Shown: positions 5,662 through 59,175 of the stretch, one piece after another | Layout: the number at the start of each line of letters is the position of its first letter | Numbering within the stretch: position 1 is the first letter of the stretch | Origin: a virus | Virus record (IMG/VR): IMGVR_UViG_3300045988_108426 | Location: 1-60,573 of that record | Length of the DNA stretch: 60,573 nucleotides | Strand: one strand, 5' to 3' | Program-made: the position numbers and the translations under genes | The notes under the pieces: generated by a model | The model's input: only the letters and a program-made list of their open reading frames with translations | Databases searched by the model: none | Told to the model about the DNA's origin: nothing

Positions 5662-6327
5662 ATGAGCAGTCCCGAAAATGATTTTATAATTGTAAATACG
5701 AAAGAAGATGTACTGCGTGAAAGATACATTGCAGGAGCAGAGTTAGTCGGGAAATATGGTTTCCCAAAGCTACAATCAATTCGTGCAAATTTAGAAGATG
5801 TTGAGCCGGTACCGTTTAATCTTGCAAGTAAAGAAAAGCATCCGAAAAATTGTGTTTGTCATTTCTTTATAGATGATGTACGCTTTGAGCGGCTTTGGAA
5901 CAATCCCAGCAAATACATGGGGATATTAAAAAATTTCAAATATGTATGTGGTCCTGATTTCACATTTTACGATGATATGCCGTTAGCTTTGCAAATTTGG
6001 CAAGTATATAGAAGTCGGGCATTAAGCTATTGTTTAAGTCGAGCTGGTTTAAAGATTATCCCGACTGTAGGCTGGGGAAGTGAAGAAACGTATGACTATT
6101 GCTTTGATGGTTTACCGCCACACTCCACGCTTGCGGTATCGACAAACGGATGTTTTTCTGAGGATGGGAAAGAATGTTACAGAAAAGGTTTCAAAGAAAT
6201 GTGTAGGAGATTAGAACCGAAGCAAGTTGTTGTTTTCGGTTCTCAAATTGATGTTGATATAGATGTAGACATTGTTTATAAGTCAAGCTACTGGCAACAA
6301 ATGAGTGAACGACTAAAAAAGAGGTGA
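5662..6327 (+). CDS. DUF4417-family protein
   Basis: HFFIDDVRFERLWNNP ... GPDFTFYDDMP ... YRSRALSYCL...IIPTVGWG ... AVSTNG matches the DUF4417 signature as remembered. Confidence 0.65.
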   Translation: MSSPENDFIIVNTKEDVLRERYIAGAELVGKYGFPKLQSIRANLEDVEPVPFNLASKEKHPKNCVCHFFIDDVRFERLWNNPSKYMGILKNFKYVCGPDFTFYDDMPLALQIWQVYRSRALSYCLSRAGLKIIPTVGWGSEETYDYCFDGLPPHSTLAVSTNGCFSEDGKECYRKGFKEMCRRLEPKQVVVFGSQIDVDIDVDIVYKSSYWQQMSERLKKR

Positions 6328-6331
6328 TTTT

Positions 6332-6478
6332 TTGGGTAGCAGGAGCGGAAACAAAAAAGGCGGATATATTTATACGCCTGGCTTAAAAAAGATTGTATAT
6401 ACAGAAAATAGAGGCGGCATCAAGATTATAAAAACTCGTTATAAATTCTTAAAACAACGACGCTCAAAGAACAAATAG
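6332..6478 (+). CDS. Possible small basic protein (TTG start)
   Basis: 48-aa ORF; GAGGTGA lies 5 nt before the TTG. Lys/Arg-rich. Not in the track (under 60 aa). Confidence 0.3.
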   Translation: MGSRSGNKKGGYIYTPGLKKIVYTENRGGIKIIKTRYKFLKQRRSKNK

Positions 6479-6580
6479 CAACTATACAACGGTTATTATA
6501 TACATAAATAGAAAAAACAAGGCTAACAAGAAGAACGGCTGTATAAGGCTGTATCAAAGAGATAAGCAGACACGAAAAAA

Positions 6581-6603
6581 GAGACTGTAAAAAGTCTCTT
6601 TTT
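6581..6603. terminator. Bidirectional rho-independent terminator between convergent genes
   Basis: AAAAAA-GAGACT-gtaaaa-AGTCTC-TTTTT. Confidence 0.75.
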
Positions 6604-6625
6604 GCAAGTTAAGTTAAAATGTTTT

Positions 6626-7156
6626 TTATATTTTCTTATATTTTACTCCTTTTTTTGACAGTATCTTTTTTCTCAAATCAAAAAACTGTGCTTTTGTTTC
6701 TCTTACCCATTCATTGTGTTTTAAAATTTCGTTTTCTGTATAAAATTCGGATGCTTCGCCCTTGAGATTCCATTCCATAAAACAATCGTTCATATATTCA
6801 TCCTTTTCAAATTCTTTGATTTCTTCAGGAAAATAAGGATAAAATGTATTATTTATACTTTTGATTTCTTCCAAAATAAATTTAGAAAAATCTAAAACAT
6901 TATCATTTCCGTACGCTTTTGCGTAATATATTAAATTGTCTAATTTTTTAAAGCTAAAATTCGGATTAGTGGATAAACCATGGGCTCCAATTTTTAACAA
7001 CGGCTCCGCAATAAAGATTGTGCAGCCATTTACTTTGATATATGGCACATTTTGATTATATTCATATTTTCCAAAATTTACCTCATATCCTTTACTTTCT
7101 GCATATTTAATCATATCCAATTTACTTTTTCTTGCGTTGCTTTTCATAACAGCCAC
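6626..7156 (-). CDS. Hypothetical protein (last gene of the leftward operon)
   Basis: 176-aa ORF with AAAGGTGG SD on the minus strand. No recognisable motif. Confidence 0.6.
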   Translation of the reverse strand: MAVMKSNARKSKLDMIKYAESKGYEVNFGKYEYNQNVPYIKVNGCTIFIAEPLLKIGAHGLSTNPNFSFKKLDNLIYYAKAYGNDNVLDFSKFILEEIKSINNTFYPYFPEEIKEFEKDEYMNDCFMEWNLKGEASEFYTENEILKHNEWVRETKAQFFDLRKKILSKKGVKYKKI

Positions 7157-7211
7157 CTTTTAACCTTTCTTTTATTTTTATAATTATATCTTTTTTAGTG
7201 ATATTTTTCAA

Positions 7212-7382
7212 TCACCAAAAAATTATATTTTCTTTTTTATCTACATTGTAATGCCACCATTTGCCTGACTGATACATTATACAAGTGTTACCGTTTTCGT
7301 CAATCCATGTTTTTTTGATTTCACCGTGTTCCCAGTCGTCGAACTGGGAGCGATGGAAGTTGTAAAAATACTTTGGTGTCAT
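7212..7382 (-). CDS. Hypothetical small Trp-rich protein
   Basis: 56-aa ORF (MTPKYFYNFHRSQFDDWEHGEIKKTWIDENG...), GGGGGTGA SD, below the track cutoff. Confidence 0.5.
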   Translation of the reverse strand: MTPKYFYNFHRSQFDDWEHGEIKKTWIDENGNTCIMYQSGKWWHYNVDKKENIIFW

Positions 7383-7432
7383 AAAATCACCCCCTATGTT
7401 AAGTTATTACCTTTTGCTTTATTTTTATTCAA

Positions 7433-7488
7433 AGCAAGCCGGGGAATCGAACCCCAGAAACGCCGACCTTGCTAATTATTTGCTTGCT
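7433..7488 (-). ncRNA. tRNA-like acceptor/T-arm minihelix lacking D and anticodon arms
   Basis: Minus strand reads AGCAAGC-25 nt-TGGGG-TTCGATT-CCCCG-GCTTGCT: a 7-bp acceptor-like stem flanking a 25-nt spacer plus a canonical 5-bp T stem with a 7-nt T loop. The 5' arm overlaps the last codons of 7476-7808. Confidence 0.55.
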
Positions 7489-7808
7489 AAAATTTCCCTT
7501 GCTAACAAAACCCAATAAAGATCATCGCCGCGCTTATCAAGCCACTTTTCGGCTTCTTCTGTGCTTTCGTCTAACCATTCAGCCATAAGCTGAATAATGT
7601 CATAATAGCTATAATCAACGCCAACACTTAAACCTCTCAGCCATTCTATGCAGGCGTTACGCTCTCCAAGCCTTGTAATCGCCCAATCGTATTCATTTAT
7701 AAATTTGTCCTTGATGTCCTTGATTGTACAAAGGTCTTCACTCTGTGCAACCTCTGTTAAATAATTTCTAACTGCTGCTTTAACTTCTTTGCTGTTTGTT
7801 CTTCTCAT
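7476..7808 (-). CDS. Hypothetical protein (first gene of the leftward operon)
   Basis: 110-aa ORF, acidic, Trp-containing helical pattern; family not recognised. Confidence 0.6.
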   Translation of the reverse strand: MRRTNSKEVKAAVRNYLTEVAQSEDLCTIKDIKDKFINEYDWAITRLGERNACIEWLRGLSVGVDYSYYDIIQLMAEWLDESTEEAEKWLDKRGDDLYWVLLAREILASK

Positions 7809-7916
7809 TTCTTTTTACCTGTGCTATAATATAGCTACCTTTCTTTTTGATTGGTGGCGGTTCGTTCTTAGTCGGGGCGACCGCCTTTTGTTATTTGTTT
7901 TCTTTTTGTTGTATAT

Positions 7917-7945
7917 ATAATAACAAATGTCACGCACTTATGCAA
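7917..7945 (-). promoter_or_regulatory. Leftward promoter TTGCAT-17-TATTAT with the operator box in its spacer
   Basis: On the minus strand, -35 is at 7945-7940 and -10 at 7922-7917. Spacer 7923-7939 lies within the 14-nt box 7928-7941. Confidence 0.5.
7928..7941. promoter_or_regulatory. Operator box copy 1 (TGTCACGCACTTAT)
   Basis: Exact 14-mer shared with 8004-8017 and 8278-8291. Confidence 0.7.
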
Positions 7946-7962
7946 TAGTAATAATATACAAA

Positions 7963-7976
7963 TATCACGCACTTAT
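7963..7976. promoter_or_regulatory. Operator box copy 2 (TATCACGCACTTAT, 1 mismatch)
   Basis: 13 of 14 match to the box. Confidence 0.6.
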
Positions 7977-7996
7977 TTTGTGCAATTTGTATATTA

Positions 7997-8028
7997 TTGA
8001 CATTGTCACGCACTTATGATATTATAAT
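7997..8028 (+). promoter_or_regulatory. Promoter-operator cassette A: TTGACA + box 8004-8017 + TATTAT/TATAAT, drives the RHH gene
   Basis: TTGACA at 7997-8002, TATTAT at 8020-8025 (17-bp spacer). The 21 nt at 7997-8017 are identical to 8271-8291. Confidence 0.7.
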
Positions 8029-8058
8029 GAATATATATAATATAAGGAGGTCTACAAA

Positions 8059-8256
8059 ATGGCAGAATTAAAAACAACTGACGCTCACAGAAAAGCGGTA
8101 AGAAAGTACGAAAACAGTAACTATAGATTGAATTTGACATTTCCAAAAGGGACAAAAGAAAGAATAGAATCATTACAGTTAAATAAAACAAATTCAGCTT
8201 TTATCAGAGATACAGTTTTGAACAAACTTGATGAACTTGAAAAAATTTTAAAATAA
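8059..8256 (+). CDS. Ribbon-helix-helix (Arc/CopG-like) DNA-binding protein, likely autoregulator
   Basis: 65 aa with a beta-strand YRLNLTFPKG followed by two helices (TKERIESL, SAFIRDTVLNKLDELE). AAGGAGG SD. Repeated operator boxes lie upstream. Confidence 0.65.
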   Translation: MAELKTTDAHRKAVRKYENSNYRLNLTFPKGTKERIESLQLNKTNSAFIRDTVLNKLDELEKILK

Positions 8257-8270
8257 CGCACTGATTAGTA

Positions 8271-8299
8271 TTGACATTGTCACGCACTTATAGTATAAT
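8271..8299 (+). promoter_or_regulatory. Promoter-operator cassette B: TTGACA-17-TATAAT with box 8278-8291 in the spacer
   Basis: Consensus -35 and -10 hexamers with a 17-bp spacer; duplicate of cassette A. Confidence 0.75.
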
Positions 8300-8347
8300 G
8301 AATATATCAAATAAAGAAAGGGCGGCAATGCCGCAAAGGTGAATGTT

Positions 8348-8677
8348 ATGACAAATATTATAAATTTAAACGATACTTTAGGCAGGGTTGATGTTAGGGC
8401 GTTACCTTGCGGAAAAAATCAGAATATAGAGGTCAGGATTGGCAGAAAACTCTACATGGTAGATGTGGACAAGAATGCTTTGCTTGCACACCTTGACTTT
8501 TACAAAAAGGTAAAAGCTGATAGAAAAAAATATTCAAAGTATGACCCAGCGGCGGAAATGATTAGCGTTACGGTGAGAAATGATGTCCGTTTAAATAAAA
8601 AATTTTTTGAAAATATCGAAGAAATCAGCAAAGCACAAACAGTCTATGATAGTTTCGGAAATTTTTTGTATAAATAA
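8348..8677 (+). CDS. Hypothetical protein under cassette B
   Basis: In-frame ATG at 8348 follows AAAGGTGA (the track starts at GTG 8339). 109 aa, no motif recognised. Confidence 0.55.
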   Translation: MTNIINLNDTLGRVDVRALPCGKNQNIEVRIGRKLYMVDVDKNALLAHLDFYKKVKADRKKYSKYDPAAEMISVTVRNDVRLNKKFFENIEEISKAQTVYDSFGNFLYK

Positions 8678-8697
8678 AAAAGTGGGTGTTAGTTTTT

Positions 8698-8724
8698 AGC
8701 GGCTTGAAATATAGCCGCTTTTTT
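8698..8724 (+). terminator. Rho-independent terminator
   Basis: AGCGGCT-tgaaatat-AGCCGCT-TTTTT. Confidence 0.8.
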
Positions 8725-8784
8725 AATACAGTTCTATTTTATAATAATACAGAAAATTGAGTTACGGATAGGGTATATGCCGTT

Positions 8785-8804
8785 ACTCGAAAATCTGTAT
8801 AAAT
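8785..8804. repeat. Iteron copy A (ACTCGAAAATCTGTATAAAT)
   Basis: Related copies at 8839-8858 (direct) and 8951-8969 (inverted, 18 of 19 identical). Partial copies at 8748-8762 and 8814-8828. Confidence 0.75.
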
Positions 8805-8838
8805 CTAGTCTAGTTTCTGTATAATTTTAAAAATACAA

Positions 8839-8858
8839 ACTCGAATTTCTGTATATTT
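8839..8858. repeat. Iteron copy B (ACTCGAATTTCTGTATATTT)
   Basis: Direct repeat of copy A with 3 mismatches. Confidence 0.7.
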
Positions 8859-8950
8859 TTAAAAACAGCATTTTTGTATTGCATTTTTAACAAGTAAATA
8901 AGGGTCCATACTATTTTATTTTGTGCAGTTGTCACAAATATTATGCTATA

Positions 8951-8969
8951 ATTATACAGATTTTCGAGT
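8951..8969. repeat. Iteron copy C (inverted)
   Basis: The reverse complement ACTCGAAAATCTGTATAAT matches copy A. Confidence 0.75.
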
Positions 8970-9093
8970 TTTGCCGATACCCCATATAAGCATCTGTTTC
9001 TGTTACTGTTCTATTACAAAGATTTTATACTGAGATAAAAGTAAATTAAAAGCCAATATATTACATTTAACATAAATATATATTTATATATAG

Positions 9094-9161
9094 CCAGTAC
9101 AGTATATTATAAACCAATACAGTAAATTATATACACATATATAGCCAGTATGTAGATTTAT
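9094..9161. repeat. Three ~17-bp direct repeats CCARTAYRKWRDATTAT
   Basis: CCAGTACAGTATATTAT at 9094, CCAATACAGTAAATTAT at 9114, CCAGTATGTAGATTTAT at 9145. Confidence 0.6.
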
Positions 9162-9184
9162 ATAAATAAAATATATTTAGGGTA

Positions 9185-9213
9185 TTGACAGCATATAAAT
9201 TTAAGTGTATAGT
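9185..9213 (+). promoter_or_regulatory. Promoter TTGACA-17-TATAGT upstream of terS
   Basis: TTGACA at 9185-9190, TATAGT at 9208-9213. Confidence 0.6.
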
Positions 9214-9344
9214 AAACGCATAAAATTTAATAACTTAGCTGTTTAGCACTTGTAAGAGATATATAAACACATGTATAGAGTATGTGTAGAATGTATATCT
9301 TTGCAGGTGCTTTTTTATTTATATAACATACTGGAGGTGAGAAG

Positions 9345-9992
9345 ATGGTAAAGGATGTAGAGCAGAACATAGATGTATTTGAAAATGATGTAGATAAATA
9401 TTTACAGCTTTTTCTTGAAGAACAGGGCATAGAGGATATGAGAACTGAATCACAGAATGTATGGAGTTCTGCATTGATGTACATTCAAAAGCATGTATTT
9501 AAAAACAATAAAATACTTAAAATGACCACACCTCCTGACGGTTATAAAAGTAATGATTACGACAATCAGTACAGTAACTTGAATCAAAGTAACTGCAATG
9601 CATATGATTTAGAGAAGGTAAAACATGTATGCGATATATATATATATGAGTGTATGCTATATGATAAGATACCTACTCAGCAAGGGCTTGTATATATGAC
9701 AGGTATTACAGCTGATACTATATGCAGATGGAAGAAAGATAGTAATGTACTAAGTAAGTCGGGTTCAGAATTTTTGCAAAATCTTTATGATAGCGAGGAA
9801 GAGGCTTTGATGTCTAAAGCGTTCTCACTCAGAAATCCGACCGGAGCACTCGCAGCACTCAATCATAAAAAAGGTTGGCGAGAAGATGGCAAGCTTCATG
9901 TACAGCAAGTCGAACAAAAGACAGCAGCAGAGCTTCCAAGACTTGATACAGCGCCACAAGATGTGGCGGTTATTGAGGATAAAAACCACTAG
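9345..9992 (+). CDS. terS: Terminase small subunit
   Basis: Central HTH-like KIPTQQGLVYMTGITADTICRWKK and C-terminal NPTGALAALNHKKGWRED match the pattern common to Firmicutes phage TerS proteins. GGAGGTGA SD. Confidence 0.65.
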   Translation: MVKDVEQNIDVFENDVDKYLQLFLEEQGIEDMRTESQNVWSSALMYIQKHVFKNNKILKMTTPPDGYKSNDYDNQYSNLNQSNCNAYDLEKVKHVCDIYIYECMLYDKIPTQQGLVYMTGITADTICRWKKDSNVLSKSGSEFLQNLYDSEEEALMSKAFSLRNPTGALAALNHKKGWREDGKLHVQQVEQKTAAELPRLDTAPQDVAVIEDKNH

Positions 9993-10541: not shown

Positions 10542-10874
10542 ATGACTGGCAATGAGTATCAAAAGTTTGCAAACAGAACTTGCAGTATTACAGAAAACAA
10601 AACGGATATGCTGCATCATGCAGTATTCGGTTTAACATCTGAGGCAGGAGAAGTAGCCGGGATGTTACAAAAGGAATATCAGGGGCACGAATTTGATATA
10701 GACCATTTCAAGAAAGAATTAGGAGATTGTACATGGATGATTGCGGAAGCGTGTACTGCGGTCGGAATAACTCTTGACGATGTATTTAACACGAATATCA
10801 AGAAATTAAAGAAACGCTATCCTGATGGTTTTACAACAGAAAATTCACTGCATAGGGCAGAAAATGATATATAA
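10542..10874 (+). CDS. mazG: MazG-like nucleoside triphosphate pyrophosphohydrolase
   Basis: YQKFANRT...GLTSEAGEVAGMLQK...ELGDCTWMIAEACTAVGITLDDV...NIKKLKKRYPDGF is typical of the small all-alpha MazG family. Confidence 0.8.
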   Translation: MTGNEYQKFANRTCSITENKTDMLHHAVFGLTSEAGEVAGMLQKEYQGHEFDIDHFKKELGDCTWMIAEACTAVGITLDDVFNTNIKKLKKRYPDGFTTENSLHRAENDI

Positions 10875-11030: not shown

Positions 11031-11102
11031 ATGGGCATCGCCAAGAGGTTAAGGCATAGCACTTTGACTGCTACATCATGGGTTCAAATCCCATTGCCCC
11101 AG
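11031..11102 (+). tRNA. tRNA-Gln (anticodon UUG) with a defective acceptor stem
   Basis: D arm GCCA/AGGC; anticodon stem TAGCA/TGCTA with loop CTTTGAC; T arm ATGGG-TTCAAAT-CCCAT. The 3' acceptor TGCCCCA requires TGGGGCA, but the 5' strand reads A-TGGGCA (one G short). Confidence 0.6.
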
Positions 11103-11358
11103 TTTGGCAAGATGCCATCTTTGTTTTTCTTCTTGCAAAATCGCGGAGAAAAACTCCTTTCCCACACTAGCGGAATGCTGATTAAAGAGCCATCGCACGG
11201 CTTGGTGTGGTTGTTCGGGAGTCTATCCCACGATGCCCGAACTTACATACTTTTTCCGTACTGGACTAATGTAGTTCCATTACAACTTTCACACCCACCC
11301 ATAACACACAGGTGCTTGCATACCATCTTAAAAGCCTATACAGAGGTGTATGCAATTT

Positions 11359-11430
11359 TGGCATATAGCTCAGTGGTAGAGCGACAGATTGTTAATCTGT
11401 AGGTCGCAGGTTCGATACCTGCTATGCCAG
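11359..11430 (+). tRNA. tRNA-Asn (anticodon GUU)
   Basis: TGGCATA-TA-GCTC-AGTGGTA-GAGC-G-ACAGA-TTGTTAA-TCTGT-AGGTC-GCAGG-TTCGATA-CCTGC-TATGCCA-G; all stems are canonical. Confidence 0.9.
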
Positions 11431-11622
11431 TTGGTGATGTTGTCAGTACACTCCTAGTGCGTTTATTATAGAAATGCAGGTGCTAATCAATATACCGGTT
11501 AAACTTAGCACAGGGAACTGAATTGAGTGGTTGTTATTCAAAAGATAGCGTTAACCGCTGACTAAAAGAACCTTACACTTAGGGCAGTGTGGAGTAAGTA
11601 AAAACGGAAACTGACCAGTTAT

Positions 11623-11705
11623 GCAGATATGGTGTAATGGTATCACAGTAGCTTGCTAAGCTATCCAGCAGAAATGCTGTCAAGGTTCGAATCCTTGTGT
11701 CTGCG
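11623..11705 (+). tRNA. tRNA-Ser (anticodon GCU), class II
   Basis: Acceptor GCAGATA/TGTCTGC; anticodon stem GTAGC/GCTAT with loop TTGCTAA; long variable arm CAGCA-GAAA-TGCTG; T arm CAAGG-TTCGAAT-CCTTG. Confidence 0.85.
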
Positions 11706-11901
11706 TTATGTCAACGCTTGTGCAGAAGCCAATGTCGGCAAAGAAACCTGTATGGGTGTTACCTGTTGCAAAGTGATTGCTATGTGTGGTTCAAATCCAC
11801 ACCACATCAATTCGAGTGGGAACGCATATCAATGTTCGTAGTGGGGATATGCAATGCTGTGAGTTGAGAAACCTGTTTTAGCAGCTAATTAAACTATATA
11901 A

Positions 11902-11981
11902 CGGATAGTAGTTCAGTTGGGAGAAACCCACTGCGGTAATGGTAGCGGAGGGAGTCACAGGTTCGAGCCCTGTCTATCCGA
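11902..11981 (+). tRNA. tRNA-like gene with a non-canonical anticodon arm (isotype undetermined; body resembles tRNA-Pro)
   Basis: Perfect acceptor CGGATAG/CTATCCG, D arm GTTC-AGTTGGGA-GAAA, T arm ACAGG-TTCGAGC-CCTGT. The anticodon arm is 24 nt (CC-A-CTGC-GGTAATGGTA-GCGG-A-GG), i.e. an extended stem with a 10-nt loop. Confidence 0.5.
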
Positions 11982-12720
11982 TGGCAATATGCTGTTGTTT
12001 ACTGACGGCATATTGAATAACCAAATAATATGCCTACGCAAAAATACTAGTTACGACGCGGGTGGTTTACTATATATCTAATCAATATAATTCTCTGACA
12101 GCATAGTGCAATTTAATGGTGCAAGTCCATATGTCAGAATTAAATATGATTAACTCAGTGCAGAGAGGTTTTTCAACCTTGCTGAGGTATGCAAGTAACG
12201 AGATAGGTAAAGTCGAGATATTGATTTTACTGATTTTGATTCTTTCAGTAAAAAGTGATTTTTATTGAGAAGACGAAAATCGTCAACAATGCTTGCATAG
12301 CGTATCATCATAAAGAAGTCAAAAGTAAAAAACTTGTGGCTGACGAATAATAGACGCTTGCAGTGCAAGAATAATCCGGTGATGTGAGTAGTGTGAGAGA
12401 CTACAGACTATATGCGGAAAATCTCATTAAGTCAGTTTGCCTTGAAACTGAGAAATCAGTGTATAACACAAGAAGTTTGTTAAAGTAGCGGTATGGCAAC
12501 TTGGCATTTGAAAACGACATTATTACAAACAAAATGGTGGTTGTTTATATAACAAGATTATTTCTGAAAGAACCGTGAAATTTATGAGTACCAATCTCAT
12601 ATGTGCTTGAAAGCGGCAAGAAGCCTAAGGTCGCTCCTGAAAGCTCAGACTTGCTGTCACATTGACCGAATATGACTGTATCTATGATGGATAAAGGGAA
12701 ACCTTAATCGTATTTATCAA
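11982..12720 (+). ncRNA. Candidate large structured ncRNA (ROOL/GOLLD-like context) between two tRNA genes
   Basis: 739 nt without a credible ORF on either strand, co-oriented with the tRNAs, and dense in short perfect hairpins, some with GAAA loops (details in findings). Confidence 0.4.
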
Positions 12721-12804
12721 GGGAAAGTATGCCTAGTGGCGAGGGCATCTGACTGTAAATCAGACACATTAGAAACAACGGCGGTTCGATTCCGTCCTTT
12801 CCCT
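12721..12804 (+). tRNA. tRNA-Tyr (anticodon GUA), class II
   Basis: Acceptor GGGAAAG/CTTTCCC; anticodon stem TCTGA/TCAGA with loop CTGTAAA; 15-nt variable region; T arm GGCGG-TTCGATT-CCGTC. Confidence 0.85.
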
Positions 12805-12872
12805 TTGCTTTCATATTGAGGACAAATTATAAACGGGTTTAAAATCCCTCCTTGGAAAATATGTCTGATAGA

Positions 12873-12945: not shown

Positions 12946-13464
12946 ATGGATAATTTGGAACAACACAAAATACTTTTACAACAGATACATGATACATATG
13001 TCAAGAAAAATCATGATTATGGCGATAGCTTTAGTCGTTCATTTAAGAAATATGGATTAGTAGCGGCTATGGTTCGCATGGAAGATAAATGGAACAGACT
13101 TGATAATATGGCAACAGGAGCAGAACGGAAAGTTGCTGACGAAACTATAAGAGATACGCTGCTAGACCTTGCTGGATATTGCGTTATGACAACGATGGAA
13201 CTGGACAGAGAGAAAGACAACGCAAATCAAAAAGCATTTGAAGAACAGGTTCGGGATGAATATACCGAAGTTTTTGGAGAAGATAACGAGAACGAAAATG
13301 AAGAAACAGATACTTCTAATAAAACATCAGCGGAAAAGAGTTCTATTGATGTAGGCAAGGTAATGGCTTTACACAATGCCAAATGGTCGCAAGCAAAGAT
13401 TGCTGATGAAATGGGGTGTTCACAAAGTATGGTTTGTAAGATTATCAAAAAATATAAACAGTGA
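12946..13464 (+). CDS. DUF1599 (nucleotide-modification-associated domain 1-like) protein with C-terminal HTH
   Basis: KKNHDYGDSF...RMEDKWNRLDN...ADETIRDTLLDLAGYCVM fits the DUF1599 signature. The C-terminal KIADEMGCSQSMVCKIIKKY is HTH-like. Confidence 0.6.
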   Translation: MDNLEQHKILLQQIHDTYVKKNHDYGDSFSRSFKKYGLVAAMVRMEDKWNRLDNMATGAERKVADETIRDTLLDLAGYCVMTTMELDREKDNANQKAFEEQVRDEYTEVFGEDNENENEETDTSNKTSAEKSSIDVGKVMALHNAKWSQAKIADEMGCSQSMVCKIIKKYKQ

Positions 13465-16728: not shown

Positions 16729-16779
16729 GGCAGAGGTCTATAAGCACCTCTGCTAAAGAAAGCGAGGTGCTTCTTTTTT
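16729..16779 (+). promoter_or_regulatory. Two mutually exclusive hairpins upstream of terL; the downstream one is terminator-like and sequesters the terL SD
   Basis: Hairpin A: GGCAGAGGT (16729-16737) with ACCTCTGCT (16746-16754). Hairpin B: AAGCACCTC (16742-16750) with GAGGTGCTT (16764-16772), followed by CTTTTTT. The two share 16746-16750. Confidence 0.5.
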
Positions 16780-18523
16780 GGCATCTAAATATCTTAAAGA
16801 AACAGTTCAAAGTTATGAAAATTACATAGAGAAAAATGGAATAGATGAAAGTGTTATAAATGCTTATGTTGAAGCTGTAGAAGTTGCTTTGCTGACGGAA
16901 AAAGACAAAGAATACGGCTTGAAATTGTCTGCAAAGGCAAAAGAGTTAATTTTTGAATACATAAGTATAGTTACAAATGGTGCGGATTTTAAATGGCTTG
17001 AAGAACAATCACAAACAAACAAGCAAACATATGAAATTATAGAAAAATATTACAAGGTTTTACTTTATGAAGCACCAATGCTACTTGATAGCTATATTTT
17101 ATACATTGAAAAAAACAGACCCCGAAAAGAAAGGTTCTATGAGCCTAGAAGAAAAACACTCAAACAAGTTGTAGATAAAATTCAAGAATTAGAAGATGGA
17201 AAACTTGACGAGTTGTTTATACATATGCCACCAAGAATAGGTAAATCCCAAATTATAACACTAGCTATGTCGTGGCATTGTGCAAAAGATACGGAAAAAA
17301 GCAATTTATATATAACATATAAAGAGGGATTGGGCGGAGCTTTTCTTACTGGTGTGATGGAAATATGGACTGACCCTACATATTGTTTTGCTGATTTATT
17401 TCCGGACATTAAAGTTGCGTGTACTGATGCTAAAAACAACAAAGTAGATTTAAAACGAAAGAAAAAATACAAAACATTGTCAGGAAAAGGGCTGGAAAGT
17501 GGTCTTAATGGTGAGTATGACGCATACGGCTGGATGGTACTTGATGATATTTTAGAGGGTATTCAAGATGTACTTAATCCTGAGACACTTAAACGAAAAC
17601 AGATAATATTTGACAACAATGTAATGTCACGAAAAAAAGAACAATGCAAACTCATACATAACGGTACAATTTGGAGTTTACATGACCTTTATAGTGACAG
17701 ATTAGATTTCTTACAAAATAATCCTGAAGCAAAAGATATTAGATATGAAATTTTAAAAATCCCGGCACTTGATGAAAATGACGAAAGTAACTTTGATTAT
17801 GATTACGGAGTTGGATATACAACGCAGTATTATCGAACATTAAGAGCAAAATTTGAAGAAAATGATGATATGGCTTCTTGGTATGCTCAGTATCAGCAAG
17901 AGCCTATTGAAAGAGATGGAGCAGTATTCAATCCTGAGCATATGAAATTTTACAATGGCGTACTTCCGAAAGAAGAACCATACAGAATATGTGCGGCTTG
18001 CGATGTTGCTTTAGGCGGAGAAGATTTCCTTGCATTTGCGGTAGCTTATATGTATGAGGATAACTCAATATATATAGATGATGTTGTTTTCGATAACAAC
18101 GAAAAGAAATTTACAAAGCCAAAAGTTGTAAATATGATTATAGACCATGATGTCGGGTCAGCATATTTTGAAGCAAATCAAGGCGGCGAGGGTTACAAAG
18201 ATGAAGTTGATGTAATGTTGCAAGCAAAAGGGAAAAAAATCAATTTGAGGTCGGAATACGCACCAACGAATAAAAGAAAAACTCAAAGGATATGGGACAA
18301 AGCAGGAAGCATAAGAGAATTTTATTTTCGTGATGTTGGATGCAGAAGTCAAGAATACAGGAAATTTATGACAAACTTATACAGTTTTACAATAACAGGA
18401 AAAAACAAACATGAAGATGCGGCTGACTGCCTTGCGTCATTAGCATATTTCATTGAGGGTAATTGGAGTGCCGCAAAAGTTGAAGCGGCTGTAAATCCTT
18501 TTAGTAGCGGTAGGAGGTATTGA
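16778..18523 (+). CDS. terL: Terminase large subunit (TTG start)
   Basis: Walker A PPRIGKSQ, Walker B WMVLDD, and a C-terminal RNaseH-like nuclease region (CDVALGGEDF, EANQGGEG, HEDAADCL). 581 aa. Confidence 0.9.
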   Translation: MASKYLKETVQSYENYIEKNGIDESVINAYVEAVEVALLTEKDKEYGLKLSAKAKELIFEYISIVTNGADFKWLEEQSQTNKQTYEIIEKYYKVLLYEAPMLLDSYILYIEKNRPRKERFYEPRRKTLKQVVDKIQELEDGKLDELFIHMPPRIGKSQIITLAMSWHCAKDTEKSNLYITYKEGLGGAFLTGVMEIWTDPTYCFADLFPDIKVACTDAKNNKVDLKRKKKYKTLSGKGLESGLNGEYDAYGWMVLDDILEGIQDVLNPETLKRKQIIFDNNVMSRKKEQCKLIHNGTIWSLHDLYSDRLDFLQNNPEAKDIRYEILKIPALDENDESNFDYDYGVGYTTQYYRTLRAKFEENDDMASWYAQYQQEPIERDGAVFNPEHMKFYNGVLPKEEPYRICAACDVALGGEDFLAFAVAYMYEDNSIYIDDVVFDNNEKKFTKPKVVNMIIDHDVGSAYFEANQGGEGYKDEVDVMLQAKGKKINLRSEYAPTNKRKTQRIWDKAGSIREFYFRDVGCRSQEYRKFMTNLYSFTITGKNKHEDAADCLASLAYFIEGNWSAAKVEAAVNPFSSGRRY

Positions 18524-42223: not shown

Positions 42224-42589
42224 TTATTTTTCTGATGAAATCAATGTTATAAATTTTTCCAAACTATCCCAATCGTCATCATCCAATTTAGATAACGCAG
42301 AAACTAAACGATATTTAAAATCTGTATTATCACCTTTTAATATGTCGGCGAACATATCAGATATTAAAATGTCTTTTGACTTTTCAATAAACATTTCGCC
42401 TTTTCCAGTACGCAACCATTCTTCATCAACATCAAGAGTAGAGCATAAAACCTTTATTGATTGTTCAGAAAGATTTCTGTTTCCATTTTCTACTAAAGAA
42501 ATATAATTCTTTGTTAATCCGAGCTTTTCGGCAAATGCATCTTGCGACAAACCTAGTTCTTTTCGCAATGTTTTTATTCGCTCTTTCAC
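42224..42589 (-). CDS. CI-like repressor (XRE-family HTH)
   Basis: IKTLRKELGLSQDAFAEKLGLTKNYISLVENGNRNLS. Divergent from a Rha gene across an operator-rich region. Confidence 0.85.
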   Translation of the reverse strand: MKERIKTLRKELGLSQDAFAEKLGLTKNYISLVENGNRNLSEQSIKVLCSTLDVDEEWLRTGKGEMFIEKSKDILISDMFADILKGDNTDFKYRLVSALSKLDDDDWDSLEKFITLISSEK

Positions 42590-42725: not shown

Positions 42726-43412
42726 ATGAACGAACTTGTACATTTAGAAAATGATGAAGCTGTATGCAGTAGCTTGGAAGTTGCTGAAAAGTTCGGCAAA
42801 AGACATGATTTGGTTTTAAGAGATATTGATAAGTTAATATCTGACTGTCCAAAATTGGGGAGTGAAAATAAATCTGACTCCTCAATTTTGAGGAGTGAAA
42901 TGTTTAGAGAAACTACATATAAAAATAGTCGTGGAAAAATCTACAGATGTTTTGAAATGAATAGGGATGGTTTTTCGTTGCTTTGTATGGGGTTCACAGG
43001 GAAAGAAGCGTTAGACTGGAAACTTAAATACATAAACGCTTTTAATCAGATGGAGAACATCATCAGAGAGAAACAGTCACAGTCTTGGATTGAAACAAGA
43101 ACAGTCGGTAAGCTGTCAAGAAAAGCTGAAACAGATGTATTAAAGCAGTTAGTTGAATATGCCAAACAGCAAGGAAGTGAACACGCTGATATGCTGTATA
43201 TGACATATTCAAAACTGGCAAATAAAACTGTCGGTGTTACCAACAGAGATACCGCAACTGCTAAACAGTTGATGAACTTATCTGTTACAGAAAACATCAT
43301 ACTGAAAGTAGTTGAAGATGGTATCAATCAACAACTTCATTATAAAGAAATTTATAGGAATTGTAAAGAGAGATTAGCAATAGTTAATCATTTGGCATAT
43401 TTAACAGCATGA
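42726..43412 (+). CDS. Phage regulatory protein, Rha family (copy 2; first early rightward gene)
   Basis: SLEVAEKFGKRHDLVLRDIDKLI...MNRDGFSLLCMGFTGKEALDWKLKYINAFNQME. Confidence 0.8.
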   Translation: MNELVHLENDEAVCSSLEVAEKFGKRHDLVLRDIDKLISDCPKLGSENKSDSSILRSEMFRETTYKNSRGKIYRCFEMNRDGFSLLCMGFTGKEALDWKLKYINAFNQMENIIREKQSQSWIETRTVGKLSRKAETDVLKQLVEYAKQQGSEHADMLYMTYSKLANKTVGVTNRDTATAKQLMNLSVTENIILKVVEDGINQQLHYKEIYRNCKERLAIVNHLAYLTA

Positions 43413-43595: not shown

Positions 43596-43778
43596 ATGTT
43601 GTCAAATTACAATTTATTAAACGCAATACCTATAGCCATATTTGTTGCGGTTTCGTGTTCAATGTCATATTGGCACGGAAAATCAAAATATGGTTATGGC
43701 ATTGGTGGACTGATGTTTACTATATTGTTAGGTTTTATAGGTCAGATTCTTGTAGTATTTTACCCAATATTTTTGTAA
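43596..43778 (+). CDS. Small two-TM membrane protein
   Basis: 60 aa with segments IPIAIFVAVSCSM and LMFTILLGFIGQILVVFYPIF; GAGGTGA SD. Confidence 0.5.
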   Translation: MLSNYNLLNAIPIAIFVAVSCSMSYWHGKSKYGYGIGGLMFTILLGFIGQILVVFYPIFL

Positions 43779-44145
43779 CCGAAGATAGTTCTTTTATGGC
43801 AGATGCTTTATCTCGTTTATCTACAAAGTTGTATAAGTTATTAAACTTATCCCAATATATATTAGGGATATAGAGCATTAGTTCGCTATAAGCACGAATA
43901 AATTCGGTTCTTGATGTTGTGTAATCTGTTTCTATTTGACACGAGGTAGCTTGAAGAAAATTATTGAATACTTCTTGTTGTTTTTGAAAATACTTTAATT
44001 TCTTTTCATGATTTAATTCTAATTTACGCATTTTGACACTGTGTAAATTGTTTAGAATTGTAACGATTACAGGAGAAATTATTGCTACAACAAGTGTTAT
44101 TGCTGAAATGATAGCGGCTGGATTTAGAATATTTGTGTTTGACAT
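43735..44145 (-). CDS. N-terminally membrane-anchored protein, co-oriented with the repressor; candidate superinfection-exclusion or abortive-infection factor
   Basis: The start at 44145 (MSNTNIL) follows CGGAGGAC; TM segment AAIISAITLVVAIISPVIVTIL. The longer track ORF upstream lacks an SD. Confidence 0.5.
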   Translation of the reverse strand: MSNTNILNPAAIISAITLVVAIISPVIVTILNNLHSVKMRKLELNHEKKLKYFQKQQEVFNNFLQATSCQIETDYTTSRTEFIRAYSELMLYIPNIYWDKFNNLYNFVDKRDKASAIKELSSVTKILGKILQESDL

Positions 44146-44197
44146 AAATTTTGTCCTCCGTTTTTTTGAAAATATTATAACACATGAAAGGAGAATT

Positions 44198-44920
44198 ATG
44201 AACGATTTACAAATTTTTGAAAATTCAGAATTTGGAGAAATCCGAACAGTAACTGTAAATGATGAACCAATGTTTTGCTTGACTGATATTTGCAAAGCGT
44301 TGGAACTTACACAGCCATCAAAGGTAAAAGAAAGATTAAACGAAAAGGGTGTGCGTAGTATTCCTACCCTTACAAAAGGTGGAGAACAAAAGCTCTTATA
44401 CATAAATGAGCCAAATCTTTACAAGACAATCTTTCAGAGCCGTAAAGAAAGTGCAGAGAGATTTACAGAGTGGGTAACATCAGAGGTTCTTCCATCAATC
44501 CGAAAAACGGGAAGTTACAACAAGCCTATGACAACAGCAGAAAAAATCCACTTACTTGCACAGGGCAATGAAGAATTAAATCTGAAAGTGGATAAAGTTG
44601 AAGCTGAGGTAAAAGAGCTGAAAGACACAATGCCGCTACTTGCTGTCGATTGCGATTTGATAACAAAAGCAGTCAAGACAAAAGGCGTTGAGGTCTTAGG
44701 TGGCAAGGACAGTAATTCATACAAGGACAGGTCTTTGCGTAGTCGTGTGTATGCAGACATTCACAGAGAAGTAAAAAGGCAGTTCGGTGTCACAACTTAT
44801 AAGGCTATAAAGCGTAATCAGTGCGACAAAGCTGTTGCGTTTGTGAGAAATTACAATGTGCCGTTTGTTTTACAGGAAGAAATCAGCGAGAGCAACGCAC
44901 AGTTGAGTTTGGTAGTTTAA
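44198..44920 (+). CDS. Antirepressor-type protein (Bro-N domain + ORF6C-like C-terminus)
   Basis: Start at 44198 after AAAGGAGAA. Contains LQIFENSEFGEIRTVTVNDEPMFCLTDICKALEL...RFTEWVTSEVLPSIRKTGSY. Confidence 0.8.
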   Translation: MNDLQIFENSEFGEIRTVTVNDEPMFCLTDICKALELTQPSKVKERLNEKGVRSIPTLTKGGEQKLLYINEPNLYKTIFQSRKESAERFTEWVTSEVLPSIRKTGSYNKPMTTAEKIHLLAQGNEELNLKVDKVEAEVKELKDTMPLLAVDCDLITKAVKTKGVEVLGGKDSNSYKDRSLRSRVYADIHREVKRQFGVTTYKAIKRNQCDKAVAFVRNYNVPFVLQEEISESNAQLSLVV

Positions 44921-59142: not shown

Positions 59143-59175
59143 CACATTCTTTTTATATAAAAGGAGGATTTGAAG

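What the first reader, a model, noticed from the sequence alone, without database searches (positions are those of the whole stretch)
6626..8677. One operator box wired into three promoters: an RHH-controlled divergent hub driving five uncharacterised genes
The 14-mer TGTCACGCACTTAT occurs four times (7928, 7963 with 1 mismatch, 8004, 8278). Three copies fill or overlap the 17-bp spacer of good sigma-A promoters:
- leftward TTGCAT-17-TATTAT (7945-7917), facing the operon 7476-7808 / minihelix / 7212-7382 / 6626-7156;
- rightward TTGACA-17-TATTAT (7997-8025), in front of the ribbon-helix-helix gene;
- a duplicate of that cassette (identical over the 21 nt 8271-8291, with the same TATAATGAATATAT tail), in front of 8348-8677.
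An operator placed inside the spacer means repressor binding must exclude RNA polymerase. The architecture is that of a tightly autoregulated burst module, as seen in anti-defence operons governed by a small autorepressor. None of the four controlled proteins has a recognisable family. This makes the hub a good candidate for a novel early or anti-defence system.
Basis: partly seen in the sequence, partly recalled or inferred. Interest (0 to 1): 0.65.

Follow-up and report, generated by a model that had tools for sequence, protein, structure and literature searches.

The report
Phage repressor hub controlling swappable genes
A small DNA-binding protein of a gut-bacterium phage appears to shut off three strong promoters, including its own, by binding a repeated box inside them; these promoters drive a fast-changing set of small genes, which in related phages include a known anti-CRISPR family, so the box and regulator can serve as a handle for finding new phage counter-defence genes.

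Summary
TGTCACGCACTTAT occurs four times in 350 bp and nowhere else in 60.5 kb. A fifth, degenerate box overlaps the regulator's stop codon. Each of the three promoters carries a box in its 17-bp spacer.

Comparative data support the interpretation. In 49 distinct related hubs from Lachnospiraceae phages and prophages, the layout is the same: two boxes per promoter and about six per hub. The box sequence also changes together with the predicted DNA-reading strand of the small protein:
- NYRLN goes with ACGCAC.
- FERVN goes with AGGCAC.
- NDRIN goes with ATGCAC.
- K/RDRIN goes with AAGCAC.
- YDRIT goes with AGCATAGTTTAAT.

This co-variation is strong indirect evidence that the protein binds the box.

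The genes on both sides are highly variable, with about 90 clusters, mostly small and without a recognised family. AcrIC5-family anti-CRISPR homologues sit in the rightward slot in five relatives, under two regulator classes. ParE toxins, HNH nucleases and LPD29 also occur there.

The window has a separate CI-like repressor at 42224-42589, so the hub is not the main lysogeny switch.

Best reading: an Aca-like ribbon-helix-helix (RHH) autorepressor module, functionally like the recently described Aca14, but with direct-repeat boxes, three promoters and swappable specificities. The functions of the window's own four cargo proteins remain unknown.

The parts
6626..7147 (-). Distal leftward cargo gene (173 aa from ATG 7147; the ORF finder gives 176 aa from GTG 7156). 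It is an orphan protein with pI 8.6.
   Evidence: ORF. There are only 4 homologous clusters in 5.8 billion proteins, all about 173 aa. No Pfam, PHROG, NCBIfam or PADLOC hit. Present at the same end of the island in close relatives L107-L109 and L112-L114.
6578..6606 (.). A/T-flanked hairpin (AGAGACT...AGTCTCT), a probable bidirectional terminator closing the leftward unit.
   Evidence: Sequence read directly. The terminator scan did not list it because the stem has too few G-C pairs. Function is inferred.
7212..7382 (-). Leftward cargo gene of 56 aa.
   Evidence: ORF with a GGGGGTG ribosome-binding site. Homologues at 44-89% identity in L029, L031, L107-L111 and L114. No family hit.
7430..7473 (-). 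tRNA-like minihelix immediately after the p110 stop codon: acceptor-like stem AGCAAG/CTTGCT plus a T-arm CTGGGG-TTCGATT-CCCCGG.
   Evidence: Sequence, fold. Conserved in 51 distinct variants, with an almost invariant T-loop GGTTCGATTCC and compensatory variants in L098, L102 and L107. ARAGORN and Rfam do not call it.
7476..7808 (-). p110, the first leftward gene. It is a conserved, acidic (pI 4.7), all-alpha protein of unknown function (phrog_11100).
   Evidence: PHROG hit at 3e-27 to a family of unknown function. At least 80 IMG/VR loci at 85-94% identity and 115 protein clusters. AF2 model with pLDDT 92.8 and six helices. No PDB fold match, and only uncharacterised phage proteins in BFVD.
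7809..7912 (-). Structured 5' leader of p110. It has a GC-rich hairpin (7856-7885) and a small AU hairpin next to the ribosome-binding site. Read on the + strand, the same DNA gives TGcTATAAT (7822-7830) followed by a hairpin and a T-run (7853-7900), which looks like a terminator.
   Evidence: Folds (z = -3.2 on the - strand, -4.1 on the + strand). There are 8 different fully complementary stems among 59 distinct leaders. The leader travels with p110 whatever the regulator.
7917..7945 (-). Leftward promoter P_left: TTGCAT (7945-7940), 17-nt spacer, TATTAT (7922-7917).
   Evidence: Sequence. The -35 matches only 3/6, so the scan did not list it. The equivalent promoter with the box in the spacer occurs in 48/49 distinct hubs.
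7928..7941 (+). Box A (TGTCACGCACTTAT), inside the P_left spacer.
7963..7976 (+). Box B (TATCACGCACTTAT), an auxiliary box between the divergent promoters, just upstream of the P_left -35.
   Evidence: The position is conserved in relatives.
7997..8025 (+). P_RHH: TTGACA, 17-nt spacer, (TG)TATTAT.
   Evidence: 11/12, with TG extension. Conserved in 46/49 hubs.
8004..8017 (+). Box D, inside the P_RHH spacer. The upstream partner box C found in relatives is missing in this window.
8059..8256 (+). 65-aa basic (pI 9.75) RHH-like regulator. It has an N-terminal helix, a predicted beta-strand NYRLNLTF (residues 21-28) and two helices.
   Evidence: 594 homologues, strongly conserved. PHROG 31631, function unknown. 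Weak hit to YlcI/YnfO_N. The profile's top PDB hits are AmrZ, the PutA RHH domain, HP0222 and HicB, in register. hhalign against Arc is in register but weak. The AF2 monomer model has low confidence.
8253..8265 (+). Box E (ATAACGCACTGAT), a degenerate auxiliary box overlapping the RHH stop codon, 26 bp upstream of box F.
8271..8299 (+). P_cargo: TTGACA, 17-nt spacer, TATAAT.
   Evidence: 12/12. Conserved in 47/49 hubs.
8278..8291 (+). Box F, inside the P_cargo spacer.
8348..8677 (+). Rightward cargo gene of 109 aa (pI 9.5), function unknown. It is the positional equivalent of the AcrIC5-family gene of L012.
   Evidence: ORF. No significant family or PDB hit. Only two IMG/VR relatives. Slot equivalence.
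8698..8729 (+). Intrinsic terminator (AGCGGC...GCCGCT followed by T6) ending the rightward cargo unit.

Best explanation
This is a self-contained regulatory hub of a temperate Lachnospiraceae phage.

**Components.** A 65-aa ribbon-helix-helix protein (8059-8256) recognises a 13-14-bp box with core ACGCAC. Boxes lie in the 17-bp spacers of three sigma-A-type promoters: its own, a duplicate directly downstream, and a divergent leftward one. Each promoter also has a second box nearby, 25-26 bp upstream of the spacer box for the two rightward promoters.

**Proposed sequence of events.** When naked phage DNA enters a cell, or on induction, the promoters fire without any phage factor. This gives a burst of the flanking small genes: p110, p56 and p173 leftward, and p109 rightward. 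The regulator then accumulates, occupies the boxes, excludes RNA polymerase and shuts all three promoters, including its own. In a lysogen it would hold them at a low autoregulated level.

**What the controlled genes are.** They form an exchangeable cargo of conflict genes, chiefly counter-defence. The module therefore works like an anti-CRISPR-associated (Aca) autorepressor locus.

**Shown versus inferred.**
- Shown: the boxes, the promoter geometry, their conservation, protein-box co-variation, cargo variability, and AcrIC5-family genes in the cargo of relatives.
- Inferred: binding, repression, timing, and the function of this window's own cargo.
For: **Non-random, conserved boxes**
- The boxes are statistically non-random and confined to the hub.
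- P_RHH and P_cargo are 11/12 and 12/12 consensus promoters.
- In 49 distinct hubs, both carry TTGAC[AT]-17-TAnnnT. The core GCAC starts at spacer nucleotide 7-8 in more than 90% of them, and a second box lies 25-26 bp upstream.
- P_left has the box in its spacer in 48/49 hubs.
- The flanks diverge while the boxes stay conserved.

**Co-variation of the predicted beta-strand with the box**

| Predicted beta-strand | Box | Distinct hubs |
|---|---|---|
| NYRLN[IL][VT]F | ATAACGCAC[AT]TAT | 23 |
| FER[VI]NCR[FL] | ATAAGGCACAAAA | 17 |
| NDRIN[IV][VI]F | ATAATGCAC[AT]TAT | 5 |
| [KR]DRINIIL | ATTAAGCACTAAT | 3 |
| VDRVNCLL | ATAAGGCACTTAT | 1 |
| YDRITVMS | AGCATAGTTTAATA | not counted |

In the first five classes, R23 and N25 are invariant and so is GCAC.

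**RHH assignment**
- The top PDB profile hits are AmrZ, the PutA RHH domain, HP0222 and HicB, all in register.
- Weak Pfam hits of family members are all to RHH families.

**Cargo**
- There are about 90 clusters of mostly small ORFs without a recognised family.
- Cargo sets differ even between phages whose regulator is 98% identical and whose backbone is the same.
- AcrIC5 (PF22147; 87.7 bits against a cutoff of 27) is the first gene behind P_cargo in L012.
- AcrIC5 homologues also lie in the P_cargo operon of L082, L083, L091 and L095, under a different regulator class.
- LPD29 occurs in the leftward cargo of Enterocloster prophages.

**Insulation and separateness**
- Terminators bound the units.
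- The phage has a separate CI-like HTH repressor at 42224-42589, divergent from a Rha gene.

**Precedent**
- Aca14 is an RHH autorepressor of its own and a neighbouring anti-defence operon (PMC13551039).
- AcrIC5 orthologues are known in Firmicutes (PMC7913775).
Against: - There is no experimental evidence for binding, repression or timing.
- The RHH fold is not confirmed. No Pfam model passes threshold, all PDB E-values exceed 0.1, and the AF2 monomer model is poor and shows no strand.
- The P_left -35 is weak.
- None of the window's four cargo proteins resembles a known anti-defence protein, and two are basic rather than acidic.
- The cargo pool also holds ParE-family toxins, HNH/EndoVII nucleases and a HicB-like RHH. 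Anti-defence is therefore only one of several cargo functions.
- AcrIC5 homologues were found in only 5 of about 139 loci.
Confidence: 0.68

Rival explanations
1. An immunity-like layer. The main role of the regulator is in the lysogen, where prophage-made RHH silences the same-box promoters of incoming related phages. This blocks their counter-defence burst ('anti-anti-defence' or secondary immunity), and the many specificity classes are the result of escape from such cross-repression. This reading is compatible with the best explanation rather than exclusive of it.
For: At least 6-8 discrete protein/box classes are exchanged among phages that otherwise share p110, c1 and backbone genes. The regulator has its own autoregulated promoter, so it can be made in lysogens. 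Homologues lie in Mb-scale bacterial contigs, that is, in prophages. The anti-anti-CRISPR concept exists for HTH-type Aca proteins; this rests on my own knowledge and on the titles listed.
Against: There are no expression data for lysogens. No case was examined of two hubs of the same class meeting in one genome. Specificity diversification could also arise from simple modular recombination.
Confidence: 0.2
2. The hub is the phage's lysis-lysogeny switch or a late-gene switch, with the RHH acting as a Cro- or CI-like master regulator (compare SSV1 F55, or Arc/Mnt in P22 immI).
For: It is a divergent promoter region with multiple operators. Discrete specificities are typical of immunity regions. 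It lies at the junction between early genes and the c1/packaging side. In Enterocloster prophages it lies next to a tyrosine integrase.
Against: The window has a canonical HTH_3 repressor (42224-42589, - strand) divergent from a Rha gene. The genes driven by the hub are variable and dispensable between near-identical phages. The rightward unit ends at a terminator (8698-8729), and c1 has its own box-free promoter at 9185-9213. No box occurs elsewhere in the genome.
Confidence: 0.06
3. The RHH is the antitoxin of a type II toxin-antitoxin pair, and the downstream gene is its toxin.
For: RHH antitoxins autoregulate through operators. ParE-family toxins follow the RHH directly in three relatives, namely L001, L130 and L129.
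Against: The downstream gene is different in almost every relative and has its own full promoter. The 65-aa protein ends with the second RHH helix and has no toxin-binding tail. Where ParE occurs, a further small acidic ORF follows it and could serve as its antitoxin. p109 has no toxin family hit.
Confidence: 0.03
4. The boxes are a centromere or iteron array for an omega/ParG-type RHH partition protein, or terminase recognition sites.
For: The repeats are direct. The RHH has an N-terminal extension as in omega and ParG (my own knowledge). The hub lies upstream of c1, which has a weak gp3/TerS-like hit.
Against: No ParA-type ATPase lies in or near any hub. The boxes are not a contiguous array; they are placed one per promoter spacer plus one auxiliary box, at fixed geometry. 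TerL is 8 kb away, preceded by another small ORF. A different repeat family lies upstream of c1.
Confidence: 0.03

Closest known systems
Aca14, the RHH-type anti-CRISPR-associated repressor of Pasteurella multocida (Feussner et al., Nucleic Acids Res 2026, PMC13551039)
   Same: It is a small RHH-domain protein with an extra helical extension. It has binding sites in the promoter of its own operon and of a neighbouring operon. It acts as an autorepressor, and the controlled genes are anti-defence or unknown small genes.
   Different: Aca14 binds an AT-rich inverted repeat overlapping the -10, lies at the end of the operon it controls, and comes from Proteobacteria. Here the boxes are non-palindromic direct repeats in the spacer plus an upstream auxiliary site. 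The regulator has its own promoter between two cargo units, three promoters are wired in, there are many specificity classes, and the hosts are Lachnospiraceae.
Canonical HTH acr-aca operons (Aca1, Aca2 and others)
   Same: A strong early promoter is shut off by a co-encoded autorepressor. Variable small cargo can be found by guilt-by-association. Regulation extends to adjacent operons (PMC13551039). Structured 5' leaders occur in some; here, the p110 leader is structured.
   Different: The DNA-binding fold is RHH rather than HTH. The regulator is not the last gene of the acr operon. The operators are direct repeats rather than inverted repeats.
Omega repressor of pSM19035/inc18 plasmids (RHH; from my own knowledge, not tested here)
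   Same: One small RHH with a disordered or extended N-terminus binds short non-palindromic repeats in several promoters, including its own, and so coordinates several functions.
   Different: Omega uses contiguous arrays of 7-10 heptads, and also acts as a centromere-binding protein with a ParA partner. Here there are single 13-bp boxes at fixed promoter positions and no ParA.
P22 immI region (the RHH repressors Arc and Mnt, plus sar antisense RNA; from my own knowledge)
   Same: A secondary regulatory region of a temperate phage, separate from the main CI/Cro switch. It has RHH repressors, divergent promoters and possibly a short antisense RNA (the + strand element at 7822-7900).
   Different: immI controls a single conserved antirepressor gene through palindromic operators. 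Here the cargo is variable and no antirepressor is present in the hub.
Shared early regulatory sequence of archaeal virus anti-defence genes (Aca8 regulon; PMC11065993)
   Same: One regulatory motif, embedded in a strong promoter, precedes many unrelated small early genes and the regulator gene itself. That motif was used to discover anti-defence genes.
   Different: Those are archaeal promoters with a wHTH regulator. No co-variation of specificity classes was described in the passages read.

Membership tests
Ribbon-helix-helix (Arc/MetJ/CopG) superfamily | N-terminal beta-strand followed by two helices, dimerising to form a two-stranded DNA-reading sheet | tested here: inconclusive
   The AF2 monomer model gives helices at 32-38 and 43-64 after an unstructured 22-31, plus an extra N-terminal helix at 8-21. 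Its pLDDT is only 62 and it shows no strand. The alternating pattern Y-R-L-N-L-T-F-P fits an RHH strand (direct reading). A dimer could not be modelled.
Ribbon-helix-helix (Arc/MetJ/CopG) superfamily | Significant sequence or profile similarity to known RHH families | tested here: inconclusive
   No Pfam hit for the window protein. Among 43 family members, there are only sub-threshold hits, to RepB-RCR_reg, PSK_trans_fac, HicB_lk_antitox, RHH_5, Arc, RHH_1 and CB_ParB_C. The profile's top PDB hits are AmrZ, the PutA RHH domain, HP0222 and HicB, in register, at E 0.13-1.2. hhalign against Arc is in register at 4% probability. NCBIfam YlcI/YnfO_N scores 17.8 bits against a cutoff of 30.
Ribbon-helix-helix (Arc/MetJ/CopG) superfamily | Strand residues determine operator specificity | tested here: met
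   Residues flanking the invariant R23 and N25 change together with the bases flanking the invariant GCAC, across 5 classes in 49 distinct hubs. More divergent classes have entirely different boxes.
Aca (anti-CRISPR-associated) regulators, functional class | Encoded in or next to an operon containing a validated acr family | tested here: inconclusive
   Not met in the window itself. Met in relatives: an AcrIC5-family gene (PF22147, 87.7 bits) is the first gene behind P_cargo in L012, whose regulator is 82% identical. AcrIC5 homologues also lie in L082, L083, L091 and L095 under another class. The AcrIC5 homologues themselves are untested.
Aca (anti-CRISPR-associated) regulators, functional class | Binding sites overlapping the promoter of the controlled operon and of its own gene | tested here: met
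   There is a box in the 17-bp spacer of all three promoters, and this is conserved. The evidence is from sequence only.
Aca (anti-CRISPR-associated) regulators, functional class | Represses transcription of the operon | not testable with these tools
   Needs reporter assays or RNA-seq.
Aca14 family (PMC13551039) | Homology to WP_005725436.1 | not testable with these tools
   The sequence is not held in the paper text or supplements available here.
Aca14 family (PMC13551039) | AT-rich inverted repeat overlapping the -10 element | tested here: not met
   The boxes are non-palindromic, all in one orientation, with a G+C-containing core, and they lie in the spacer.
Type II toxin-antitoxin RHH antitoxins (ParD/CopG-type) | Co-transcribed with a cognate toxin, and carrying a C-terminal toxin-binding extension | tested here: not met
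   A separate consensus promoter precedes the next gene. That next gene varies between relatives. The protein ends at the second helix. p109 has no toxin hit.
ParG/omega-type centromere-binding RHH | Adjacent ParA-type ATPase and a contiguous repeat array | tested here: not met
   No such gene is found in any of the loci inspected. The boxes are dispersed at fixed promoter positions.

The most novel reading that the evidence does not exclude
The regulator-plus-box pairs are exchanged as orthogonal cassettes among otherwise near-identical gut phages. This would happen because a resident prophage's RHH can silence the counter-defence burst of an incoming phage that uses the same box. The hub would then be both an anti-defence launcher and a new layer of inter-phage immunity. 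Within it, the conserved p110 cassette would be a new kind of RNA-processed unit, with a covarying 5' leader hairpin and a tRNA-like acceptor/T-arm minihelix placed exactly after its stop codon. Possible roles for the minihelix include RNase P punctuation of the transcript or tRNA mimicry.
Probability: 0.15. Interest if true: 0.8.

Novelty: new variant of a known kind. Interest (0 to 1): 0.6.

Why it matters
1. **A search handle.** The hub offers a sequence-defined search handle: a small conserved regulator plus a box inside a consensus promoter. In Lachnospiraceae phages it marks about 90 or more families of small unknown genes as candidate counter-defence or conflict genes. Few anti-defence genes are known for this abundant group of human-gut bacteria.

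2. **A natural recognition data set.** The protein-box classes form a natural data set for RHH-DNA recognition. One strand position tracks one base: Y with C, E with G, and D with T or A. This can be tested directly and used to build orthogonal repressors.

3. **A broader view of RHH Aca-like control.** RHH-type Aca-like control was first described in 2026 for Proteobacteria. This hub suggests it extends to Firmicutes phages with a different operator logic: direct repeats, two boxes per promoter and three promoters.

Tried and rejected
- **blastn against phage records.** blastn of 6400-9000 against 50,697 phage records gave no match.
- **Rfam.** The E-value threshold run on 6400-9400 gave no tRNA or other credible family for the minihelix or the leader.
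- **AF2 of the RHH monomer.** The model was of low confidence, so no fold search was run on it.
- **PDB searches.** Sequence and profile searches for the RHH, p110 and p109 gave nothing significant.
- **Foldseek of the p110 model.** This high-confidence model found no PDB relative.
- **RNAalifold on the leader alignment.** It failed because MAFFT misaligned stems of different length. It was replaced by per-sequence folding.
- **Aca14 sequence.** It could not be obtained from the paper, so homology is untested.
- **Rejected readings.** TA antitoxin, partition centromere, main lysogeny switch, and packaging-site repeats were all considered and rejected; the reasons are given under the rival explanations. 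The idea that the minus-strand ORF 43735-44403 is the repressor was dropped, because it overlaps a well-supported Bro-N/ORF6C gene and a genuine HTH_3 repressor lies at 42224-42589.

Full report
**1. Observation**

The 14-mer TGTCACGCACTTAT occurs at 7928, 8004 and 8278 (exact) and at 7963 (one mismatch). All four copies are on the + strand. There is no other match at up to 2 mismatches in the 60,573-bp window, and none of 100 dinucleotide-preserving shuffles reached four matches.

The consensus scan ranks the two rightward promoters as the best in the region. TTGACA-17-TATAAT at 8271-8299 scores 12/12. TTGACA-17-TATTAT at 7997-8025 scores 11/12 and has a TG extension.

The claimed leftward promoter TTGCAT-17-TATTAT (7945->7917) has only 3/6 in the -35, and the scan did not list it.

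A relaxed search revealed a fifth, degenerate box, ATAACGCACTGAT at 8253-8265. It overlaps the stop codon of the small gene. All coordinates were re-verified from the sequence file.

**2. Setting**

The window is a temperate siphovirus-like phage genome. It encodes:
- a large terminase at 16778-18523, about 39% identical to that of Clostridium phage Maintenon;
- an SPP1-type portal;
- two Rha proteins, a Bro-N/ORF6C protein and a G39P-like loader;
- a large serine recombinase at 59170-60549;
- five tRNA genes and a ROOL RNA.

Almost all genes are on the + strand.

The hub lies between a DUF4417 gene (5662-6327) and a conserved 215-aa gene, c1 (9345-9992). A canonical HTH_3 repressor at 42224-42589 (- strand) is divergent from a Rha gene. 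The main immunity switch is therefore elsewhere.

**3. The regulator**

The 65-aa product of 8059-8256 has no Pfam, PADLOC or above-threshold NCBIfam hit. It belongs to PHROG 31631, of unknown function.

It has 594 close homologues, mostly in Lachnospiraceae metagenomes and genomes, some on Mb-scale contigs. A library-wide HMMER search found only 60 representative clusters.

A profile of diverse members finds AmrZ, the PutA RHH domain, HP0222 and HicB as its best PDB matches. All are RHH proteins aligned in register, but at E 0.13-1.2. Sub-threshold Pfam hits of members are likewise to RHH families.

The AF2 monomer model is poor, with pLDDT 62. It shows helix 8-21, coil 22-31, helix 32-38 and helix 43-64. 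This is what an obligate-dimer RHH with an N-terminal helix would give.

I treat 'RHH' as probable, not proven.

**4. Comparative test of the boxes**

Twenty-seven IMG/VR loci encode a 72-89% identical regulator. In all of them the core ACGCAC is kept while the flanks diverge; the consensus is ATAACGCAC[A/T]TAT. The layout is constant:
- a box in the spacer of the leftward promoter;
- a box between the two divergent promoters;
- a box just upstream of the -35 of the regulator's promoter;
- a box in that promoter's spacer;
- a box at the stop codon;
- a box in the spacer of a second TTGACA promoter.

Over 49 distinct hubs, P_RHH and P_cargo are TTGAC[AT]-17-TAnnnT. GCAC starts at spacer nucleotide 7-8 in more than 90% of cases, and a partner box lies 25-26 bp upstream.

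P_left is TTGnnn-17-TAT[A/T]AT with the box in the spacer in 48 of 49 hubs.

The family standard is thus two boxes per promoter and six per hub. This window has lost the box upstream of the P_RHH -35 and has a degenerate box E.

**5. Protein-operator co-variation (the key result)**

The first leftward gene, p110, occurs in at least 80 further loci. Most of these carry a paralogous regulator only 37-52% identical to ours, and they lack ACGCAC boxes. Their hubs have the same architecture but different boxes, and the box tracks the predicted beta-strand:

| Predicted beta-strand | Box |
|---|---|
| NYRLN[IL][VT]F | ATAACGCAC[AT]TAT |
| FER[VI]NCR[FL] | ATAAGGCACAAAA |
| NDRIN[IV][VI]F | ATAATGCAC[AT]TAT |
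| [KR]DRINIIL | ATTAAGCACTAAT |
| VDRVNCLL | ATAAGGCACTTAT |

More distant classes use unrelated boxes in the same promoter positions:
- YDRITVMS with AGCATAGTTTAATA;
- FDLVQIRL with ACATGATATATA;
- WDIISCRL with ATTGCAAT.

Within the first five classes, R23 and N25 are invariant and so is GCAC. This co-variation is hard to explain unless the protein reads the box.

Thirty of the 139 loci have no family member, and there p110 is joined to other promoter/operator types.

**6. The cargo**

ORF clustering shows a conserved backbone (c11 ... hub ... c1, MazG) with highly variable small genes on both sides. Phages whose regulator is 98% identical to ours, with the same backbone, carry different cargo sets.

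Of 125 cargo representatives scanned, few hit Pfam:
- AcrIC5 (PF22147; E 5.6e-25; 87.7 bits against a cutoff of 27);
- ParE_toxin, in three;
- HNH/EndoVII nucleases;
- a HicB-like RHH;
- LPD29;
- some flanking host genes.

The AcrIC5 homologue is L012:557-757. It is the first gene behind the boxed P_cargo of a regulator of our own class. That makes it the positional equivalent of window gene 8348-8677.

Four more loci carry AcrIC5 homologues in the P_cargo operon of the YDRITVMS class.

AcrIC5 orthologues in Firmicutes and Actinobacteria, and broad type I-C inhibition by AcrIC5, are documented (PMC7913775).

**7. This window's own cargo**

- **p110 (7476-7808).** Acidic, and modelled with high confidence as a six-helix protein. 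It has no PDB relative and only uncharacterised phage relatives.
- **p56.** Has homologues in several relatives.
- **p173.** An orphan with four clusters in 5.8 billion proteins.
- **p109.** Has two IMG/VR relatives and no family hit.

Their functions remain unknown.

**8. Mechanism proposed**

Consensus sigma-A promoters need no phage factor, so all three should fire on DNA entry. The regulator is made from its own promoter. It then binds the spacer and auxiliary boxes, which is incompatible with RNA polymerase binding, and shuts down all three promoters including its own.

Terminators at about 6578-6606 and at 8698-8729 insulate the module. No box occurs elsewhere in the genome.

This is the logic of Aca-controlled anti-defence operons. 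An RHH example, Aca14, was shown in 2026 to repress its own operon and a neighbouring one (PMC13551039).

The differences from Aca14 are:
- non-palindromic direct-repeat boxes in the spacer, rather than an inverted repeat over the -10;
- a separately transcribed regulator placed between two cargo units;
- three promoters;
- many interchangeable specificity classes;
- Firmicutes hosts.

Homology to Aca14 could not be tested.

**9. Rival readings**

- **TA antitoxin.** Rejected because the downstream gene is variable and separately promoted, and the protein has no C-terminal tail.
- **ParG/omega-like centromere.** Rejected because there is no ParA and no contiguous repeat array.
- **Master lysogeny switch.** Rejected because there is a separate CI-like repressor, the cargo is dispensable, and the unit is insulated.
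- **Cross-repression role in lysogens.** This remains open and is compatible with the main explanation. It would explain the diversity of specificity classes.

**10. Side observations**

p110 carries two conserved RNA-level features wherever it occurs.

The first is a 5' leader hairpin. Eight different fully complementary stems occur among 59 variants. On the opposite strand the same DNA reads as TGnTATAAT followed by an intrinsic terminator.

The second is a tRNA-like acceptor/T-arm minihelix directly after the stop codon. Its T-loop GGTTCGATTCC is almost invariant, and there are compensatory stem variants.

A second repeat family, CTCGAAAATCTGTATA, lies upstream of c1. It is conserved in 11 relatives, including some with a different RHH class.

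**11. Verdict**

The anti-defence role is supported by association, but it is unproven for this window's genes.

The hub is a new variant of a known kind (Aca-type autorepressor modules, RHH subtype). It is of practical interest as a discovery handle in gut Firmicutes phages, and as a natural RHH specificity series.

Noticed in passing
window 7430-7473 (- strand): A tRNA-like minihelix begins 2-4 nt after the p110 stop codon. It has an acceptor-like stem and a T-arm with loop TTCGATT. It is conserved in 51 distinct sequence variants, with compensatory stem variants in L098, L102 and L107. ARAGORN and Rfam do not detect it. Possible roles are an RNase P/processing signal, a partial terminator, or tRNA mimicry.
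   Followed up: partly
window 7809-7912 (- strand); + strand reading 7822-7900: The p110 5' leader has a GC-rich hairpin, with 8 different fully complementary stems among 59 variants, and a small AU hairpin next to the ribosome-binding site. On the + strand, the same DNA reads as an extended -10 (TGcTATAAT) followed by a canonical terminator. That could give a roughly 55-nt antisense RNA, or act as an insulator terminator.
   Followed up: partly
window 8737-8971 (sites at 8786, 8840 and 8953): A second repeat family, CTCGAAAATCTGTATA, occurs in direct and inverted orientation within the 667-nt non-coding gap upstream of c1 (9345-9992). It is conserved in 11 relatives, including some with a different RHH class. 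It is probably the operator set of another regulator.
   Followed up: partly
window 12130-12725: A full-length ROOL RNA (Rfam RF03087; 334.7 bits against a gathering score of 99.1) is embedded in a cluster of five tRNA genes (Gln, Asn, Ser, Leu, Tyr; 11031-12805).
   Followed up: no
window 42224-42589 (- strand) and 42726-43412 (+ strand): An HTH_3/XRE-type CI-like repressor is divergent from a Rha regulatory protein. This is probably the main lysis-lysogeny switch of the phage.
   Followed up: partly
window 59170-60549: A large serine recombinase (Resolvase, Recombinase and Zn_ribbon_recom domains) ends 24 bp before the window end. It is the likely integrase.
   Followed up: no
window 6626-7156: The ORF finder starts this gene at GTG 7156 (176 aa). 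All homologues are about 173 aa, and an AAGGTGG ribosome-binding site precedes ATG 7147, so the true start is probably 7147.
   Followed up: yes
L081, L090 and L093, downstream of the second boxed promoter: In these relatives, P_cargo is followed by a tandem array of TGATATCAC repeats and then a 151-aa protein with a second RHH domain (HicB-family Pfam hit). This looks like a nested second regulator with its own site array.
   Followed up: no
L126 2380-3000; L128 560-1300: In some bacterial contigs the regulator gene is preceded by, and probably co-transcribed with, another small ORF. There are no upstream boxes, and only the two downstream boxes plus P_cargo are kept. In L128, StiP and PRTase_2/TRSP genes lie a short distance downstream.
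   Followed up: no
window 7928-8291 compared with relatives L001-L027: Boxes A, D and F of this window share the 5' flank TGTC, whereas the more distant relatives L001-L027 have TATA. Several boxes of one genome have therefore changed in concert. The regulator differs from those relatives at a few N-terminal and strand-adjacent residues.
   Followed up: no
window 10542-10874 and 12946-13464: A MazG-like pyrophosphatase and a DUF1599 protein ('nucleotide modification associated domain 1') with an HTH_23 domain lie just downstream of the hub. They hint at a nucleotide-pool or DNA-modification function.
   Followed up: no
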